NCBI GenBank assembly: GCA_963817915.1
Contig: CAWFQL010000017.1
Location: forward strand, 64,001 to 128,000
DNA length: 64,000 nt
Direction: 5' to 3'
From: an uncultured candidate division Zixibacteria bacterium
GTDB lineage: Bacteria; Zixibacteria; MSB-5A5; UBA10806
The notes beneath the pieces are model-generated. The model was not told the DNA's origin. It worked only from the letters and a program-made list of their open reading frames with translations, and did no database searches. How positions within the stretch are numbered: the first letter of the stretch is position 1; each line of letters opens with the position of its first letter. The position numbers and the translations under genes are program-made. Positions 1,894 through 20,476 of the stretch are shown here, piece by piece.

Positions 1894-2516
1894 TGCGTGT
1901 CAAAGCTTGCTTTGACCGCAACCTTTAAGCCATGAAAAGAAGAAGAAATTTAATAGATGATTCAATTAATCCGATTTTTATTACCACCACTATTACAAAT
2001 TGGATCCCAGTGTTTGGAATTAATGATCTATGCCTTGAAGCACTCCAAATCTTCAACAAGCAATGCGAGGAACTGAAGACAAAGGTCTTCGCCTATGTTT
2101 TAATGCCGAATCATTTTCATTGTATTATTCAATCATCTAACAAGGGTGATGTCTCTTTATTAATGCAGAGATGGAAAAGCCTAACCGCAAGAAAGATTAT
2201 CGCATATTGTTTACACAACAAACGTGATTGGTTGAATAGATTTGCTAATGCGGCAGGCAAATACAAAAGGCAAAAAGATGAGTCTTATCAGGTATGGTTG
2301 CCTAGGTTTGACGATTTCGCTATCAGGGATGAAGATCAATTTCTAACCAAACTCAATTATATTCATGGCAATCCTTTGAAGCATAATTTAGTCGATGAGT
2401 GTAGTAAATATAAATTCAGTAGTTTCTCGAACTATCATGGTGGAGATAATTCCTATATTAAAATTACAAAATTCAGGGAGTAGTTGGATTGCGGTCGAAG
2501 TAAACTTCGACACGCA
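1894..2516 (+). mobile_element. RAYT locus (REPtron): transposase gene between inverted REP hairpins
   Basis: tgcgtgtcaaagcttgctttgaccgca (1894-1920) and inverted tgcggtcgaagtaaacttcgacacgca (2490-2516) flank an AT-rich HUH transposase gene. Confidence 0.85.
1932..2483 (+). CDS. REP-associated tyrosine transposase (Y1 HUH family)
   Basis: FITTTI N-terminus, HUH motif YVLMPNHFH, WLPRFDDFAIRD, catalytic Tyr motif YIHGNP, YKFSS tail. Confidence 0.9.
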   Translation: MKRRRNLIDDSINPIFITTTITNWIPVFGINDLCLEALQIFNKQCEELKTKVFAYVLMPNHFHCIIQSSNKGDVSLLMQRWKSLTARKIIAYCLHNKRDWLNRFANAAGKYKRQKDESYQVWLPRFDDFAIRDEDQFLTKLNYIHGNPLKHNLVDECSKYKFSSFSNYHGGDNSYIKITKFRE

Positions 2517-2607: not shown

Positions 2608-3045
2608 ATGAAATGGATCACACGTTCTAATGTCAAAGTCGATCGGGTTGCGTGCCCATGGCTGATAAAAAAAATCATCGACCCCAAGGCCGAATTCATC
2701 TTTGTGCCTAAGGAGCAGGTTATGGAAACAGCCGCGAAAGAGGGCGCGATCCCATACGACTACCCCGATGTGGAATTAGGGCATCACGAAGGCAAATGCA
2801 GTTTCGAGGCGATTGTGGCGAAATATCAGATCAAAGACCCGGCGATTCTAATGCTGGCGCAGATCGTGCATGGCGCCGATGTCTCCAATGATTTATATGG
2901 CCGCCCGGAGGCTCCCGGCCTGGAGGCGATCGCCCATGGTTTCGCCATGTTAGGTTTGAAGGATGATCACGAGATTCTAGCGAAGGAGTTTATTGTTTAC
3001 GATGCTCTCTACGCCTATTGCCAAAAAAAGATAAGCGAAAAATAA
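2608..3045 (+). CDS. Chromate resistance ChrB-domain protein
   Basis: MKWITRSNVKVDRVACPWLI, HHEGKCSFE and YDALY motifs; AGGA RBS. Confidence 0.85.
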   Translation: MKWITRSNVKVDRVACPWLIKKIIDPKAEFIFVPKEQVMETAAKEGAIPYDYPDVELGHHEGKCSFEAIVAKYQIKDPAILMLAQIVHGADVSNDLYGRPEAPGLEAIAHGFAMLGLKDDHEILAKEFIVYDALYAYCQKKISEK

Positions 3046-3055
3046 TAATATATAA

Positions 3056-3252
3056 TGCGAGTCAGGGCTTGCCCTGACCGCCCCAAACCTGTCATTCCGC
3101 ATCCGTCGGTCGCCGGACTGAAGACAGCTTGACGCGGAATCCAGTCACATTATCGTCGGGTCAGGCGACCCGACGACATTAATTGGGTGGCAGTCGTACT
3201 CGACTGCCCCGAAGATAAGACGCCTTAGGGGCAGCCAGGGATGGCTGCCGCC
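3056..3252. repeat. Mixed palindromic repeat cluster between convergent genes
   Basis: RAYT-type REP (3056-3082), GTCATTCC...GGAATCC element (3091-3142), gtcgggtcaggcgacccgac hairpin, and two GGCAG..CTGCC hairpins. Confidence 0.8.
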
Positions 3253-3271: not shown

Positions 3272-3691
3272 TTACACCAATTTCGCGTTCAGTTTTATTT
3301 CAACAGCCGCTAATGCCTGCGAGACCGGGCATCCCTTCTTGGTGGCCTCAGCGATTTCCATAAACTTCTTGTTGTCGATGCCCGGGACATTGGCGACTGT
3401 GTCGAGCTCAATCAATGTAATCTTGAATCCTTCGGGAAGTTTATCCAGATACACCTTTGCTGTCGTCGTCACATTCTTGGGTGTGAATCCGGCTGTAGCC
3501 AGCCCGTGCGACAACGCCATCGAATAGCATCCGGCGTGCGCGGCGGCGATCATTTCCTCGGGATTGGTGCCCTTGCCATTCTCGAAACGTGATGTGAATG
3601 AATACGCGCCCTCGAAACCTCCGAATTTCACTGTCCCTTTGCCCTGGGGTAGATTCCCCTCCCATACCGCATTACCTGTTCGAATCAGCAT
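3272..3691 (-). CDS. osmC: OsmC family peroxiredoxin
   Basis: YSFTSRFE, GTNPEEMIAAAHAGCYSMALS and CPVSQAL, with both catalytic Cys. Confidence 0.92.
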   Translation of the reverse strand: MLIRTGNAVWEGNLPQGKGTVKFGGFEGAYSFTSRFENGKGTNPEEMIAAAHAGCYSMALSHGLATAGFTPKNVTTTAKVYLDKLPEGFKITLIELDTVANVPGIDNKKFMEIAEATKKGCPVSQALAAVEIKLNAKLV

Positions 3692-3741
3692 AATTATCTC
3701 CTTGTTTTCTGAATCATATAATCATTTTTCCATAGAGTCAA

Positions 3742-3767
3742 AACCTTAATATGGAGCAGGAGGTTCC
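3742..3767 (-). promoter_or_regulatory. Putative ECF sigma promoter GGAAC-N18-GTT upstream of osmC
   Basis: Minus strand ggaac-ctcctgctccatattaag-gtt; same architecture at 31209 and 35570. Confidence 0.55.
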
Positions 3768-3795
3768 TGAAAGGGCACGATGCGAAATCTACCCA

Positions 3796-4079
3796 AAGCT
3801 TGTCATTCCGCACTTGTTGCGGAATCTTGCGTGATATATTTTCGGTTTTGAAATCTATTATTTGTATTCGAGCATATGAATTTAGATTCCCGCATTCGCG
3901 GGAATGACAATGTGGGGAAGCTTGTCATTCCGCACTTGTTGCGGAATCTTGCGTGATATATTTTCGGTTTTGAAATCTATTATTTGTATTCGAGTATATG
4001 AATTTAGATTCCCGCATTCGCGGGAATGACAATGTGGGGAAGCTTGTCATTCCGCACTTGTTGCGGAATCTTGCGTGAT
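3796..4079. repeat. 122-bp tandem repeat (about 2.3 copies) of paired GTCATTCC/dRS3-like palindromes
   Basis: aagcttgtcattccgc recurs at 3796, 3918 and 4040; the two full units differ at one base. Confidence 0.95.
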
Positions 4080-4426
4080 CCTTTTCAGTCGAAAAAAAAT
4101 TACAATTCATCATATAAGTCATTCCATTGAGGATTAGACCTTTCAATTGTATTGATCTTCCATTGTCTCCGCCATTTCTTCATACGTTTTTCCCGTTGGA
4201 TCGCCGAATACACATCTTCGGTTGCTTCGAAATATACAAGTTTATGAATATGATACCTTTTTGTAAATCCATCAAAAAGGCCATTCTTATGCTCGTATAC
4301 TCGTCTTTTAAGATCGTTGGTCATTCCAACATATAAAATGCCATTTTTAGCGCTTGCCATTATGTAAATGTAATAGGTTTTCGTATAGCCAAATAAAATT
4401 AGATTCCCGCATTCGCGGGAATGACA
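4045..4426 (-). mobile_element. Putative GIY-YIG-carrying palindrome-bounded element
   Basis: The TGTCATTCC...GGAATGACA ends of the 109-bp mini units here enclose only a GIY-YIG gene. Confidence 0.55.
4100..4384 (-). CDS. Small stand-alone GIY-YIG nuclease (start codon uncertain)
   Basis: YYIYI...LYVGMTNDLKRRVYEHK, FTKRY, AIQREKRMKKWRRQWK and NPQWNDLY. The expected start position is ACG at 4384. Confidence 0.85.
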   Translation of the reverse strand, partial: TKTYYIYIMASAKNGILYVGMTNDLKRRVYEHKNGLFDGFTKRYHIHKLVYFEATEDVYSAIQREKRMKKWRRQWKINTIERSNPQWNDLYDEL

Positions 4427-4465
4427 AGGTAGCAAAACCTGTCATTCCGCATTTATTGCGGAATC
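4402..4465. repeat. dRS3-like palindrome plus GTCATTCC palindrome
   Basis: gattcccgcattcgcgggaatgac (4402-4425) and gtcattccgcatttattgcggaatc (4441-4465). Confidence 0.9.
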
Positions 4466-4471
4466 TATCTG

Positions 4472-4834
4472 TCACTGTATCCTGATCGGATTTCCGGAGC
4501 CTCTGAAAATAAAATACGCGGCCGCAACCAGGCACAAAGTCGCCCAGAGAAAATCGGTCTTGATCTGCTCTTTCATATAAACAATCGAGAATATCGCGAA
4601 AACACACATCGTAATAATTTCCTGAATCACCTTCAATTGCCCGAGCGAGAAATGCTCACGTCCGATACGATTTGCCGGCACCTGCAGGCAGTATTCGAAA
4701 AACGCCACTCCCCAACTGAGGATAATTACAAAATATAATGGTTTGCTCCGAAAATCCTTCAGATGCCCATACCAGGCATATGTCATGAATAGATTCGAAA
4801 AAGATAGCAATACTATGGTTGTCAGCCCAGTCAT
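4472..4834 (-). CDS. Small DMT-superfamily membrane protein
   Basis: SNLFMTYAWYGHL, SWGVAFFEYCLQVPANRIG and QLKVIQEIIT; four hydrophobic segments. Confidence 0.85.
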   Translation of the reverse strand: MTGLTTIVLLSFSNLFMTYAWYGHLKDFRSKPLYFVIILSWGVAFFEYCLQVPANRIGREHFSLGQLKVIQEIITMCVFAIFSIVYMKEQIKTDFLWATLCLVAAAYFIFRGSGNPIRIQ

Positions 4835-4939
4835 ATGTTGTCCTCCAAGTTATTGCGGGATAATTCAAATCTGATAAAATTCGTTTTATTAGCGAATTTG
4901 GATTGCTGTTTTCGCGGGAATGACAGACAACTTGTCTGC

Positions 4940-5836
4940 CGCCTTGATATGGTCTTGCTTTAAACTTAATAGTAAATCACCACTTAGATTGCTGTATTGC
5001 GTCCCAATATTGGTTAGAATGAATCTTCGTTTTTGAAATCGATATAGAATTGGTCTTTACCTTTAATATTCGAGGGCCAATAAGCTACTCAAATAAGCTA
5101 TCTACAAGATCCATCCTGTTCGCATAAAGCATAATTGAAAATTACACGGATAAAATCAGTCGAGGGAAATAAATTTCTTTTGCTAGGGGGTCGTAGTCAG
5201 CTGTTTGTGCTATCATAGGTATTCCAATATAACGCAAATCCTCGGCCGCTCTATTCACTATATAATTCGAAAATTGAAAATTAGCTATTCTGTATTTTTT
5301 GCCGTCCCATTTCCAGATTTGCAGAGGGTGGGGGATTCTGCGCGTTGTTTCTTCCAACAAGTGAACCAGGTATCATAAAATATGATCTCGGGAATCGAGT
5401 CCGTATCCAAATCCGCAAAATCAACATGTGCTCGATCAAAAAATCGACTATCCTTAATTACAATAGAATCGCCCACAGAATAGACATATACATCAGCGCA
5501 GCAATGCTGGCCCCCGTCATTACATTGGAAAATAATTTCCTTTATTCCATCGGAATCAATATCACGACAATACTGATGTTGGATTCCAGATGAGCGGTTT
5601 TCATTGAAGTCGTAAAGCCTAACGAATTCATCCTGTATGTGCTTAATTATTGTATCTCCATTAATTATTTTGAGATCATAAGGAAAAAGCCGTTCGTCAT
5701 AAATTCGGCGATAACTTAAGAATCCGGTATAATTATCTATATTAAAAGTATCTACTGCAACTGTCTTAAAATCAAAATATCATTGTTGATGGATCAAAGC
5801 AGGAAACCAAGATCATAAGTGTAGTATTATTGTCAT
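4940..5836 (-). pseudogene. Frameshifted hypothetical exported protein with DxDxDG-type motifs (boundaries approximate)
   Basis: Fragments join across frames: DIDSDGIKEIIF...GGQHCC...DLDTDSIPEIIF...AESP / HPLQIWKWDGKKY. Confidence 0.55.
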
Positions 5837-15325: not shown

Positions 15326-15780
15326 GTCGGGTTTCTCATCCGTCATTTGCCGGATTGTAAACTCGCTTCGCTCGTTCGGAACGCCGACCTACTGCTCCCA
15401 TTGGCTGCTGCTCGCAAGATTCCGCGACAAGCGCGGAATGACAAAGCAGGGGACAGGAGGGATGCCTGACGCACGCTTGGAATATAAAGAAAAAAAGTGG
15501 CAGGTCACGCCCGTCTTCGACGGTCTACGACCTGCCATAACTCATATTATTGTAAGGGCGGGTTTGAAACCCGCCCCTACGGAGATATTTGTGGTTTTGA
15601 CAACTGGGATGGATTCCGCATGGAGCCCTATTAATTCCCGCGACCGACGGAAGCGGAATTTCAGGACTGGGGTTTGATGAATCAAACCCCTACAGCGCTA
15701 TCGGGTTTCTCATTCGCTTCGCTCGCTCGGAACGCAGAGCTACTGATCTCGCAAGATTCCGGCTCGGGGGCCGGAATGAC
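15326..15780. repeat. Mixed REP cluster
   Basis: CCTAC-ended hairpins (gggcgggtttgaaacccgcccctac, ggggtttgatgaatcaaacccctac), two gtcgggtttctca...ggaacg shells, and two GATTCC...GGAATGAC palindromes. Confidence 0.88.
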
Positions 15781-18037: not shown

Positions 18038-18414
18038 AGGGTTCAAAATTTTGAACCCCCTACGGCGGCATTCGTTATAGTTGCAGGCGGGTTTGATAAA
18101 TCAAACCCCTACAATCGCATTTTTATTTTTGTAGAGACGCAAGATTTTGCGTCTCTACCGGTGATAATGAATTACATATCGGCAGGATTCCAGTAGCCCA
18201 AATCTCGAAGAGATTTGGGAACACGACCCCAAAACCACGGGGGATTTTGGGCTACGGCTCCGACCGCCCATAGTAGGATGCGGTCAGGGCAAGCCCTGAC
18301 TCGCAGGAAAACGCCCATAGTAGGATGCGGTCACAGTAAACTGTGACACGCAGGAATAATGCCAACCTTCGGATTGCTTCGTCGTCCGGCAGCTGCCGGA
18401 CTTCTCGCAATGAC
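18038..18414. repeat. Mixed REP cluster
   Basis: gggttcaaaattttgaaccccctac, gggtttgataaatcaaacccctac, gtagagacgcaagattttgcgtctctac, gtagcccaaa...tttgggctac, two RAYT-type REPs (18279, 18326), and half a GATTGC...GCAATGAC element. Confidence 0.9.
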
Positions 18415-19989: not shown

Positions 19990-20099
19990 TGTTATTTGAC
20001 GAAACTTCTTGCTGTAGTATAACAGAATTTTGGGGAAATGGTATTGTTTATTTTGCGAGAAGTCGTCAGGAAGGGATTCCTTACGGGGCGGGGAAAGGA

Positions 20100-20476
20100 G
20101 GGCACAACATGTTGTGCCCCTACAGGAATAATCGTTCTTTTGCGGGCGGGTTTGATAAATCAAACCCCTACAATCGCATTTTTTATTTTTGTAAAGAGCA
20201 AGATTTCGTTCGGAGACGCAAGATTTTGCGTCTCTACCGGCAATAGCAGTAGGGCAGGAGTCGAAGACTCCTGCCGATCACGGCTTTATGGCAGGAGTGT
20301 ACCACTCCTGCCCTACTCCGACTACAGCGCGGAAAATGGCGGGCAAGATTCCGCATCAAGCCGATTTAGGCCCGCCGTGGTGGGTGCGGAATGACAGGTA
20401 TTACATTTCGGGCGGGTGTGGAGACTACCTTCAGATTGCTTCGGCGACCGACAGGAGCCGGACTTCTCGCAATGAC
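20100..20476. repeat. Mixed REP cluster
   Basis: gggcacaacatgttgtgcccctac, gggtttgataaatcaaacccctac, gagacgcaagattttgcgtctctac, inverted gtagggcaggagt pair, GATTCC..GGAATGAC and GATTGC..GCAATGAC elements. Confidence 0.9.

What the first reader, a model, noticed from the sequence alone, without database searches (positions are those of the whole stretch)
3796..4465. GIY-YIG nuclease inside a dRS3-like inverted-repeat unit, beside gene-less miniature copies: candidate nuclease-driven selfish element
Seen: the region reads A-spacer-B, A-spacer-B, A-[GIY-YIG gene]-B, A. A is gtcattccgcacttgttgcggaatc and B is gattcccgcattcgcgggaatgac. Each A..B pair has inverted ends TGTCATTCC/GGAATGACA. Two units are 109-bp minis (3801-3909, 3923-4031). 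The third (4045-4426) has the same ends and holds only the nuclease gene. Lone relatives occur near 3091, 4900, 15417, 15755 and 20347. Known: B matches the Neisseria dRS3 consensus ATTCCC-N8-GGGAAT. Inference: this is an autonomous/non-autonomous pair analogous to RAYT/REPIN but using a GIY-YIG nickase. I know of no characterised mechanism for it.
Basis: partly seen in the sequence, partly recalled or inferred. Interest (0 to 1): 0.82.

Follow-up and report, generated by a model that had tools for sequence, protein, structure and literature searches.

The report
Ssn nuclease gene with hairpin repeats
A small DNA-cutting enzyme gene sits between two inverted copies of the DNA hairpin it most likely recognises, a pairing published in 2025 as the Ssn system, so this is a known kind of element; this copy lacks the usual start codon and lies beside a local duplication of the hairpins.

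Summary
Window 3796-4465 contains seven GTCATTCC...GGAATC hairpins (9 in the window against 0 expected). They form two 109-bp gene-less units, one 382-bp unit holding only a GIY-YIG ORF, and one lone hairpin.

That is out of date. Chenal et al. 2025 (PMC11893778) describe the Ssn family: roughly 94-aa single-domain GIY-YIG nucleases. They bind these hairpins (NTS/SRM, an extended dRS3) only as single-stranded DNA and cut a few nucleotides 5' of them. The genes typically lie in an SRM-ssn-SRM layout.

Across 108 homologous copies from many phyla, the inward-facing hairpin was found upstream in 69, downstream in 61 and on both sides in 58. The distal control gave 43 of 746. Hairpin type clusters on the protein tree.

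Specific to this locus:
- The ORF has ACG where 108 of 108 homologues have a canonical start, so it may be silenced.
- The two minis are a local 122-bp tandem duplication whose spacer occurs nowhere else in the genome, so they are not dispersed MITE copies.
- Mobility is not shown, and no empty site could be obtained.

This scan has reached the same Ssn conclusion on other genomes several times. Verdict: a new member of a known kind.

The parts
4100..4384 (-). ssn-type GIY-YIG ORF. It has 94 codons counted from ACG (4384-4382) to the stop TAA (4102-4100). The only canonical in-frame starts are TTG at 4435 (111 aa, reading through hairpin B3) and ATG at 4360 (86 aa, losing the first catalytic Tyr strand).
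   Evidence: Pfam GIY-YIG E 9e-16. Y7, Y18 and E65 are kept, as are all 23 columns that are at least 90% conserved among 105 homologues. The codon at the homologues' ATG position is ACG.
4402..4425 (-). Hairpin B3. It is an SRM on the gene's sense strand, 17 nt upstream of the ACG codon.
   Evidence: ssDNA fold -9.0 kcal/mol, z -4.2. It matches the published N. meningitidis NTS consensus at 25 of 28 positions (compared by eye with the consensus).
4046..4070 (+). Hairpin A3. It is an SRM on the antisense strand, 29 nt after the stop codon, so it faces inward.
3796..4079 (.). Tandem array of 122 bp x 2.33, each unit being linker + A + 59-bp spacer + B. Its last partial copy supplies A3.
   Evidence: family D2, 99%; 122/122 and 121/122 identity, then 40/40.
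3802..3826 (+). Hairpin A1
   Evidence: fold.
3885..3908 (-). Hairpin B1
   Evidence: fold.
3924..3948 (+). Hairpin A2
4007..4030 (-). Hairpin B2
4441..4465 (+). Hairpin A' (loop TTTAT). With B3 it forms the B-linker-A' doublet that recurs elsewhere in the genome.
   Evidence: One search shows 90-97% matches on contigs C11, C9 and C6.
4426..4440 (.). 15-nt linker between tag-to-tag hairpins; the linkers at 3909-3923 and 4031-4045 are equivalent. This is the predicted cleavage zone on both strands, if the enzyme cuts a few nt 5' of the GTC tag as N. meningitidis SsnA does.
   Evidence: Inferred from the cut-site description.
4901..4924 (-). Degenerate B-like hairpin. Together with A' it brackets the DMT_6 gene (4472-4834).
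   Evidence: family D3, 84%; Pfam DMT_6.
3091..3141 (+). Long-loop variant of hairpin A, with extra DNA inside the loop.
   Evidence: C17:67091-67141; fold.
15418..15442 (-). Lone SRM hairpin
15755..15780 (-). Lone SRM hairpin
20347..20395 (-). Lone long-loop SRM hairpin

Best explanation
This is a member of the Ssn system: a single-domain GIY-YIG nuclease gene in the canonical hairpin-gene-hairpin layout, with its cognate SRM/NTS-type hairpins.

By analogy with the four enzymes tested in print, the protein would:
- bind the hairpin only when the DNA is single-stranded;
- read the GTC tag 5' of the stem and the C 3' of it;
- cut that strand a few nucleotides 5' of the tag.

Here that places the cuts inside the 15-nt linkers between tag-to-tag hairpins. 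This step is inferred.

The roughly 63 hairpins of this type scattered through the genome are its likely targets.

The two gene-less units next door arose by local tandem duplication of a hairpin-pair module (shown by sequence).

This gene copy has ACG at the family's conserved ATG position. It is therefore probably poorly translated or recently silenced, while the rest of the ORF is still intact (the codon is shown; the consequence is inferred).
For: - GIY-YIG domain over the whole small ORF.
- The tyrosine/tyrosine/glutamate spacing (7, 18, 65) equals that of the published catalytic residues of N. meningitidis SsnA (Y6, Y17, E64). All three are invariant in 105 homologues.
- Hairpin B matches the published NTS consensus at 25 of 28 positions. 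Each window hairpin is one substitution away from the published SRM search string.
- Among 108 homologous copies in 107 loci, an inward-facing GTC-hairpin-C lies within 150 bp upstream in 69, downstream in 61 and on both sides in 58. The opposite orientation occurs in 17 and 26. Distal control windows gave 43 of 746.
- The commonest distances are 16 nt before the start and 11-13 nt after the stop.
- Hairpin type needs 29 changes on the protein tree, against a mean of 41.6 in shuffles; 0 of 1000 shuffles were as low.
- The paper reports ssDNA-specific, strand-specific cutting beside the hairpin for four homologues, and SRMs on both sides of 42% of homologues.
- Tandem origin of the minis.
- Start codon: 108 of 108 homologues have ATG/GTG/TTG at positions -5 to +3, and the window has none.
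Against:
- The published SRM search string gives 0 exact hits in the window. Genome-wide it gives only 27, against about 7.5 in simulated genomes.
- Hairpins and gene do not always go together:
  - Relatives G009, G026 and G034 carry 18, 13 and 140 hairpins of one or the other type, with no homologue found at E <= 1e-8.
  - This genome has 40 GTCATTGCGAG-type hairpins with no cognate gene found.
- No activity, expression or target data exist for this protein.
- The ACG could be an assembly error in a draft genome.
Confidence: 0.85

Rival explanations
1. One reading: the hairpin-gene-hairpin unit is an active selfish mobile element whose nuclease drives its own spread. On this reading the gene-less units are its non-autonomous derivatives, like RAYT/REPIN. 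This can be true in addition to Ssn membership.
For: - IS-like layout with inverted ends.
- Closest homologues (55-73% identity) come from many phyla: Ignavibacteriota, Chloroflexota, Pseudomonadota, Bacteroidota, Spirochaetota and others.
- None of the 9 other loci whose neighbours were examined has this locus's OsmC/DMT_6 neighbours.
- Gene-less 69-bp doublets with the same two hairpin types and TGTCATTCC...GGAATGACA ends lie at four or more other places in this genome.
- Many homologues lie at contig ends.
- The paper raises the same idea in its Discussion.
Against: - There is only one copy of this gene in the genome; the other GIY-YIG matches are at most 35% identical.
- The minis' spacer occurs only at this locus, so they are a tandem duplication, not transposed copies.
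- Similarity between mini and gene-unit interiors is not significant on the 5' side (101 of 1000 shuffles as good). On the 3' side it rests on about 10 bp next to A.
- No target-site duplication was seen (by eye).
- No empty site could be obtained.
- L012 and L032, from different genera, keep the same kind of neighbour, which suggests vertical descent there.
- The predicted cuts fall on opposite strands outside the unit, not on one strand as in IS200/IS605.
- The gene lacks its start codon.
Confidence: 0.25
2. The hairpins are REPs serviced by the RAYT-type tyrosine transposase encoded 1.6 kb away (1932-2483). The GIY-YIG gene is a bystander.
For: The neighbouring ORF is a REP-associated tyrosine transposase (NCBIfam NF047646, E 3.3e-29). 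The hairpins form inverted doublets like REPINs.
Against: - Of 9 Y1_Tnp matches in the genome, only this one has such a hairpin within 1 kb, and that one is 863 bp away with another gene in between.
- The genome holds a separate, more numerous set of TAG-preceded hairpins (265 of 6040, the commonest 3-nt tag). That is the tag usually tied to RAYTs (Di Nocera et al. 2013, seen as a listing and abstract start only).
- The GIY-YIG link holds across 108 homologues.
Confidence: 0.03
3. The hairpins are ordinary transcription terminators or mRNA-stabilising stem-loops that pile up in intergenic DNA. The nuclease gene merely sits among them.
For: Hairpin B3 followed by CTAATTTTAT scores as a terminator-like site on the - strand, just after the DMT_6 gene. 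All three local genes are on the - strand.
Against: - Only 1 terminator-like site was found in 3650-4950, against a shuffle mean of 1.1.
- The conserved parts are the asymmetric GTC tag and the trailing C, not a T-run.
- The hairpins' orientation is tied to the nuclease gene on both sides (69 vs 17 upstream, 61 vs 26 downstream).
- The upstream hairpin sits between any promoter and the start codon.
Confidence: 0.05

Closest known systems
Ssn family: SsnA of Neisseria meningitidis with NTS/SRM hairpins (Chenal et al., Nat Commun 2025, PMC11893778; outline, Results sections, Discussion, two Methods sections and parts of Supplementary Data 4 read)
   Same: - Single-domain GIY-YIG protein of about 94 aa with the same Tyr/Tyr/Glu spacing.
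- Hairpin with a GTCATTCC...GGAATC core almost identical to the NTS.
- Hairpin-gene-hairpin layout with inward-facing copies.
- Dozens of further hairpins in the genome.
   Different: - Low copy number (about 63 hairpins, against about 430-450 in N. meningitidis).
- Two stem variants (A and B) flank one gene.
- ACG replaces the start codon.
- An adjacent 122-bp tandem array.
- No activity data for this protein.
- Host is an uncultured environmental bacterium, not a symbiont or pathogen.
Neisseria dRS3 repeats and NIMEs (intergenic mosaic elements); from the paper's text and recall
   Same: 20-bp ATTCCC-N8-GGGAAT palindromes bound short repeat units in intergenic arrays.
   Different: The NIME spacer families are Neisseria-specific. 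Here the spacer is unique to one locus.
RAYT/REPIN systems (Bertels & Rainey 2011, PMC3116915; abstract start seen)
   Same: A single-copy nuclease gene flanked by the hairpins it services. Inverted hairpin doublets are scattered in intergenic DNA.
   Different: - The enzyme is GIY-YIG, not a HUH/Y1 transposase.
- The tag is GTC, not GTAG.
- Replication of the doublets by the enzyme is not shown.
IS200/IS605 TnpA elements (as discussed in the paper)
   Same: A small nuclease recognising ssDNA hairpins at the element ends.
   Different: - IS200/IS605 ends are not inverted copies of each other.
- Both cuts fall on one strand in IS200/IS605. Here the predicted cuts are on opposite strands, outside the unit.
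Free-standing GIY-YIG homing endonucleases such as T4 Seg proteins and I-TevI (recall)
   Same: A small selfish-looking GIY-YIG gene.
   Different: - Those enzymes carry a separate DNA-binding domain.
- They cut double-stranded target sites that lack the gene.
- They are not bracketed by their own recognition hairpins.

Membership tests
Ssn (cd10448) nucleases | Single-domain GIY-YIG protein shorter than 150 aa | tested here: met
   Pfam GIY-YIG covers profile positions 2-78 of 78, with no other domain. There are 94 codons; the median length of 105 homologues is 95.
Ssn (cd10448) nucleases | Catalytic Tyr, Tyr and Glu as in SsnA (Y6, Y17, E64) | tested here: met
   Y7, Y18 and E65 (numbered from the ACG codon) have the same spacing. 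Each is 100% conserved in 105 homologues.
Ssn (cd10448) nucleases | blastp E < 1e-10 and at least 75% coverage against N. meningitidis SsnA (CAX49033.1) | not tested
   That sequence could not be obtained through the session's tools; no Neisseria record was among the 80 loci. Indirect support: the paper's Supplementary Data 4 marks Melioribacter roseus, in the phylum of the window's best hit, as having an SsnA and cd10448 homologue.
Ssn (cd10448) nucleases | Top CDD assignment cd10448 (GIY-YIG_unchar_3) | not testable with these tools
   No CDD library is on hand. NCBIfam gave only sub-threshold hits. The PDB holds no closer relative than UPF0213 proteins at E 0.001.
Ssn (cd10448) nucleases | SRM hairpin in both flanks within 500 bp | tested here: met
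   Hairpins lie 17 nt upstream and 29 nt downstream, facing inward. By the paper's exact search string there are 0 hits in the window. Each hairpin matches it with one substitution. B matches the NTS consensus at 25 of 28 positions.
Ssn (cd10448) nucleases | Site- and strand-specific cutting of ssDNA beside the hairpin, with none on dsDNA or RNA | not testable with these tools
   A biochemical assay is needed.
Ssn (cd10448) nucleases | Expressible gene with a start codon just after the upstream hairpin | tested here: not met
   ACG sits at the position where homologues have ATG. 108 of 108 homologues have a canonical start at -5 to +3, and the window has none.
RAYT/REPIN | The hairpins flank, and co-occur with, a Y1 (HUH) REP-associated transposase | tested here: not met
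   Of 9 Y1_Tnp matches in the genome, none is flanked by GTCATTCC hairpins; the nearest is 863 bp away.
Transposable element with non-autonomous derivatives (IS/MITE) | Several dispersed copies sharing internal sequence, target-site duplications, and empty sites in relatives | tested here: inconclusive
   - The gene unit is single-copy.
- The mini spacer is unique to this locus.
- Dispersed 69-bp hairpin doublets do exist.
- No relative close enough for an empty-site test was found.

The most novel reading that the evidence does not exclude
SRM-bounded modules are units that the nuclease can cut out of single-stranded DNA at the 11-18-nt linkers. Examples are the ssn cassette itself, the gene-less doublets, and host genes such as the DMT_6 gene bracketed here. 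Once cut out, they are re-inserted or amplified by short-homology recombination at other hairpins. On this reading the system is a true nuclease-driven mobile cassette family. This locus would then show one stage of its life cycle: an autonomous copy that has just lost its start codon, while its hairpin population and a fresh local amplification persist.
Probability: 0.15. Interest if true: 0.6.

Novelty: new member of a known kind. Interest (0 to 1): 0.25.

Why it matters
This locus adds an environmental, low-copy example to a nuclease family of practical interest, since these are site-specific ssDNA cutters. The example has near-Neisseria hairpins in an unrelated host. It shows three things that bear on whether Ssn cassettes are selfish or domesticated:

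- A copy with an intact body but no start codon.
- Hairpin families that persist without a detectable cognate gene.
- Local tandem amplification of hairpin modules that needs no transposition.

It does not open a new kind of system.

Tried and rejected
- **Published SRM search string:** 0 exact hits in the window. I replaced it with a one-substitution match and a generic GTC-hairpin-C detector.
- **Empty-site test at osmC-DMT_6:**
  - The DMT_6 gene was found in only 9 of 41 related genomes, counting the window's own, and was never beside OsmC.
  - The best metagenome relative of DMT_6 is 75% identical.
- **Empty-site tests for two relatives' cassettes:** the flanks lay on different contigs or one flank was missing, so nothing could be concluded.
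- **Public sequencing runs holding this DNA:** none was listed, so no read-level look at variants was made.
- **Mini as internal-deletion derivative of the gene unit:** the 5' 30 nt are no better than 101 of 1000 shuffles. The 3' 30 nt are significant (1 of 1000), but only through about 10 bp next to hairpin A.
- **Inverted-repeat score between flanks:** 84 of 105 copies exceed the 95th percentile of shuffles. The direct-orientation control also scores high (68 of 105) because the repeats are palindromes. I therefore used the asymmetric tag instead.
- **RAYT as driver:** rejected.
- **Terminator reading:** weak.
- **Solved structure of an Ssn protein:** none found by sequence.
- **Literature searches before the lead:** 'GIY-YIG' with palindromic/repeat/intergenic/mobile, and with REPIN/RAYT/COG2827/UPF0213/YhbQ, did not surface the Ssn paper.

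Full report
**What is there**

Three hairpins of type A (GTCATTCCGCACTTGTTGCGGAATC) lie on the + strand at 3802-3826, 3924-3948 and 4046-4070. Three of type B (GTCATTCCCGCGAATGCGGGAATC, read on the - strand) lie at 3885-3908, 4007-4030 and 4402-4425. A variant A' lies at 4441-4465.

Each A...B pair has the ends TGTCATTCC and GGAATGACA. Two pairs are 109 bp and hold no gene. The third, 4045-4426, holds only a GIY-YIG ORF on the - strand (Pfam PF01541, E 9e-16).

The pattern GTCATTCC-N4-14-GGAATC occurs 9 times in the window, against none in 100 shuffles. The short hairpins fold as ssDNA at -7.9 to -9.0 kcal/mol, z -3.2 to -5.8.

The neighbours are OsmC (3272-3691), a DMT_6 membrane protein (4472-4834), ChrB_C (2608-3045) and a Y1 transposase-like ORF (1932-2483).

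**The genome**

The window is C17:64001-128000 of a 3.33-Mb draft in 22 contigs, 44.8% G+C.
- It holds 63 GTCATTCC-N4-60-GGAATC hairpins. Of these, 44 have loops of 4-14 nt, against 0 for the backwards-read control.
- The stems differ between copies but stay paired (GCA/TGC, CGC/GCG, GGCC/GGCC, AGC/GCT, TGC/GCA). About a dozen copies carry extra DNA in the loop.
- There is one gene of this type. The other GIY-YIG matches are at most 35% identical, lie far from any such hairpin, and sit beside tRNA-Met and a tmRNA gene.
- None of the nine Y1_Tnp matches is flanked by these hairpins.

**Relatives**

The protein has matches at E <= 1e-8 in 26 of 41 genomes: the window's own plus 25 of its 40 relatives. 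One scan of species-representative genomes gave 327 relatives, of which the best 80 were kept. Those 80 come from many phyla at 48-73% identity.

I pooled 108 loci. One fell out at tblastn E 1e-10, which left 108 gene copies in 107 loci. The window's own locus and one duplicate locus were excluded. I then looked for GTC + 7-nt arm (at most 1 mismatch) + loop + complementary arm + C within 150 bp of each gene.

| Position and orientation | Copies of 108 |
|---|---|
| Upstream, inward-facing | 69 |
| Downstream, inward-facing | 61 |
| Both sides, inward-facing | 58 |
| Either side, inward-facing | 72 |
| Upstream, opposite orientation | 17 |
| Downstream, opposite orientation | 26 |
| Distal control window-orientations | 43 of 746 |

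- Many misses have imperfect long stems that can be seen by eye.
- The commonest distances are 16 nt from hairpin to the first codon and 11-13 nt from stop to hairpin.
- With the paper's own search string, fewer are caught: both sides in 10 of 108 exactly, and in 26 of 108 with one substitution. Distal controls gave 2 of 187.

**Co-variation**

I made a quick maximum-likelihood tree of 105 proteins. It rests on 95 columns, so many forks are unresolved.
- The first five stem bases of the upstream hairpin (20 types, 68 labelled rows) need 29 changes. The shuffle mean is 41.6, and 0 of 1000 shuffles were as low.
- The ATTCC-type hairpins go with one part of the tree. That part mixes hosts from the window's own class with Chloroflexota, Pseudomonadota, Bacteroidota and Ignavibacteriota.
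- Within the window's own family, more distant proteins carry ATCGCGAG- or ATTGCGAG-type hairpins.
- Related sequences share labels by descent, so this shows clustering, not co-evolution in a strict sense.

**What it is**

I read the outline, the Results sections on NTS, ssnA association, enzymology, transformation and family, the Discussion, two Methods sections and parts of Supplementary Data 4.

The paper defines the NTS as CGTCATTCCCGCGMAVGCGGGAATCYRG, an oriented extension of dRS3. It reports that the 94-aa single-domain GIY-YIG protein SsnA:
- binds the NTS only as ssDNA;
- cuts a few nucleotides upstream of it;
- leaves the reverse strand, dsDNA and RNA alone;
- loses activity in the Y6A, Y17A and E64A mutants.

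[quoted passage not shown] In its survey, 71% of homologues have an SRM nearby and 42% have one on both sides. It notes that the NTS-ssnA-NTS layout looks like an insertion sequence and resembles IS200/IS605 with REP/BIME. Mobility was not tested. The function shown in N. meningitidis is restriction of transformation by NTS-bearing ssDNA.

The window's gene fits this family:
- It has the same size and is a single domain.
- Tyr7, Tyr18 and Glu65 have the published spacing, and each is invariant in 105 homologues.
- Hairpin B matches the NTS at 25 of 28 positions.
- It has the inward-facing bracket.

I could not compare it directly with SsnA or with cd10448. That membership row stays untested.

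**What is particular here**

1. *Start codon.*
   - The homologues read ATG-AAA-ACN-TAY-TAY... directly after the hairpin. The window reads ACG-AAA-ACC-TAT-TAC.
   - All 108 homologous copies have ATG, GTG or TTG at positions -5 to +3. The window alone has none.
   - The only canonical starts are TTG 4435, which would translate through the hairpin, and ATG 4360, which would drop the strand with the first catalytic tyrosine.
   - The rest of the ORF is intact and keeps all 23 columns that are at least 90% conserved. One odd residue stands out: Thr79, where 100 of 105 have Leu.
   - So this is either a freshly silenced or weakly translated copy, or a base error in a draft assembly.

2. *The minis.*
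   - The two minis and the first 40 bp of the gene unit form one tandem array with a 122-bp period (3796-4079).
   - Its 59-bp spacer occurs nowhere else in the genome.
   - The interiors of mini and gene unit share only about 10 bp next to A and a few bases next to B.
   - The minis are therefore a local duplication, not transposed copies.

3. *Dispersed doublets.*
   - What is dispersed are single hairpins and 69-bp doublets: B-type hairpin, a 20-bp spacer, then inverted A'.
   - These lie at C6:195062, C9:357172 and C11:300853, with a 108-bp-period array at C9:355849-356160.

4. *A bracketed host gene.* The DMT_6 gene is itself bracketed by A' and a degenerate B at 4901-4924. This resembles the NTS-gene-NTS arrangement described for Neisseria.

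**How it most likely works**

- *Shown in print for relatives, inferred here:* the protein binds the folded hairpin on ssDNA and cuts 5' of the GTC tag. In this locus the tags of neighbouring units face each other across 15-nt linkers (3909-3923, 4031-4045, 4426-4440). The predicted cuts on the two strands therefore both fall in the linkers, just outside each unit.
- *Supporting pattern:* tag-to-tag linkers cluster at 11-18 nt in the homologue loci (26 of 43 pairs, none shorter). Tag-outward spacers cluster at 20-25 nt. Copies of one doublet are not independent.
- *Open question:* whether such cuts serve restriction of incoming ssDNA, as in Neisseria, or the spread of the modules.

**Mobility**

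For:
- The gene's neighbours differ from this locus's in all 9 other loci examined.
- The closest homologues cross phyla.
- G001 carries two near-identical tandem cassettes.

Against or missing:
- The gene is single-copy here.
- No target duplications were seen.
- No relative is close enough for an empty-site test, and no sequencing run was listed.
- One pair of cassettes in different genera keeps a similar neighbour.

**Imperfect coupling of hairpins and gene**
- Relatives G009, G026 and G034 have 18, 13 and 140 hairpins of one or the other type, with no homologue found at E <= 1e-8. Some of these are incomplete drafts.
- This genome has 40 GTCATTGCGAG...GCAATC hairpins and no cognate gene found.

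**Verdict**

The nuclease-hairpin partnership is correct, but it was published in 2025 and this scan has met it repeatedly on other genomes. The selfish-element reading remains an untested hypothesis that the paper also raises, and the local minis do not support it. This is a new member of a known kind, of modest interest.

Noticed in passing
window 1932-2483 (+); hairpins at 15555-15579, 18088-18111, 20099-20122, 20147-20170, 20250-20276, 20289-20315: A REP-associated tyrosine transposase (RAYT) gene (NCBIfam NF047646, E 3.3e-29) lies 1.6 kb from the locus. The genome also has a separate, larger set of TAG-preceded hairpins: 265 of 6040 perfect 8-bp hairpins, the commonest tag. Two hairpin/nuclease systems therefore seem to coexist.
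   Followed up: partly
genome G000, 40 places; none examined in the window: A second SRM-like family, GTCATTGCGAG...GCAATC, has 18+22 copies in this genome. No Ssn homologue with such flanks was found here. Relatives with that hairpin type do carry cognate genes (L018, L021, L025, L034).
   Followed up: partly
G000:C16:333747-334627 (L002, L004, L005) and G000:C12:473891-474106 (L003): Three tandem small GIY-YIG ORFs lie beside a tRNA-Met gene, and one lies beside the tmRNA gene. They are 30-35% identical to the window's protein and have no GTCATTCC hairpins. A similar triple interleaved with tRNA-like pieces occurs in G017 (L030).
   Followed up: partly
window 4118-4125 and 4320-4327 (+ strand): The tag-plus-stem word GTCATTCC occurs twice inside the nuclease ORF itself. 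On the coding strand it spells the conserved G-M-T of the YVGMT motif and the W-N-D near the C-terminus. This is probably a codon coincidence; it was not tested across homologues.
   Followed up: no
window 4441-4465, 4472-4834, 4901-4924: The DMT_6 membrane-protein gene is bracketed by hairpin A' and a degenerate inverted B-like hairpin. This is the same hairpin-gene-hairpin geometry as the nuclease gene.
   Followed up: no
window 3150-3252: Three further unrelated perfect palindromes (24-28 nt) are packed between ChrB_C and OsmC, next to the long-loop hairpin at 3091-3141. This is a mosaic of different palindromes, like a BIME.
   Followed up: no
G000, about 12 places, e.g. C12:580068-580118, C16:180786-180836, window 3091-3141: A sub-family of type-A hairpins carries the same insertion of about 26 nt inside the loop (GTCATTCCGCA-TCCGTCGGTCGCCGGACTCAAGAGAG-CTTGATGCGGAATC). 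B-type copies carry a different GC-rich insertion. These are either nested insertions into the loop or a variant that multiplies as a unit.
   Followed up: no
L006 (G001:C66:74883-76800): A genome of the same family carries two tandem, nearly identical copies of the cassette, 758 bp apart. Each has the upstream hairpin.
   Followed up: no
homologue loci L006-L114 and G000: The spacing between neighbouring hairpins is not random. Tag-to-tag linkers are mostly 11-18 nt and never shorter in the loci. Tag-outward spacers peak at 20-25 nt. Copies are not independent.
   Followed up: partly
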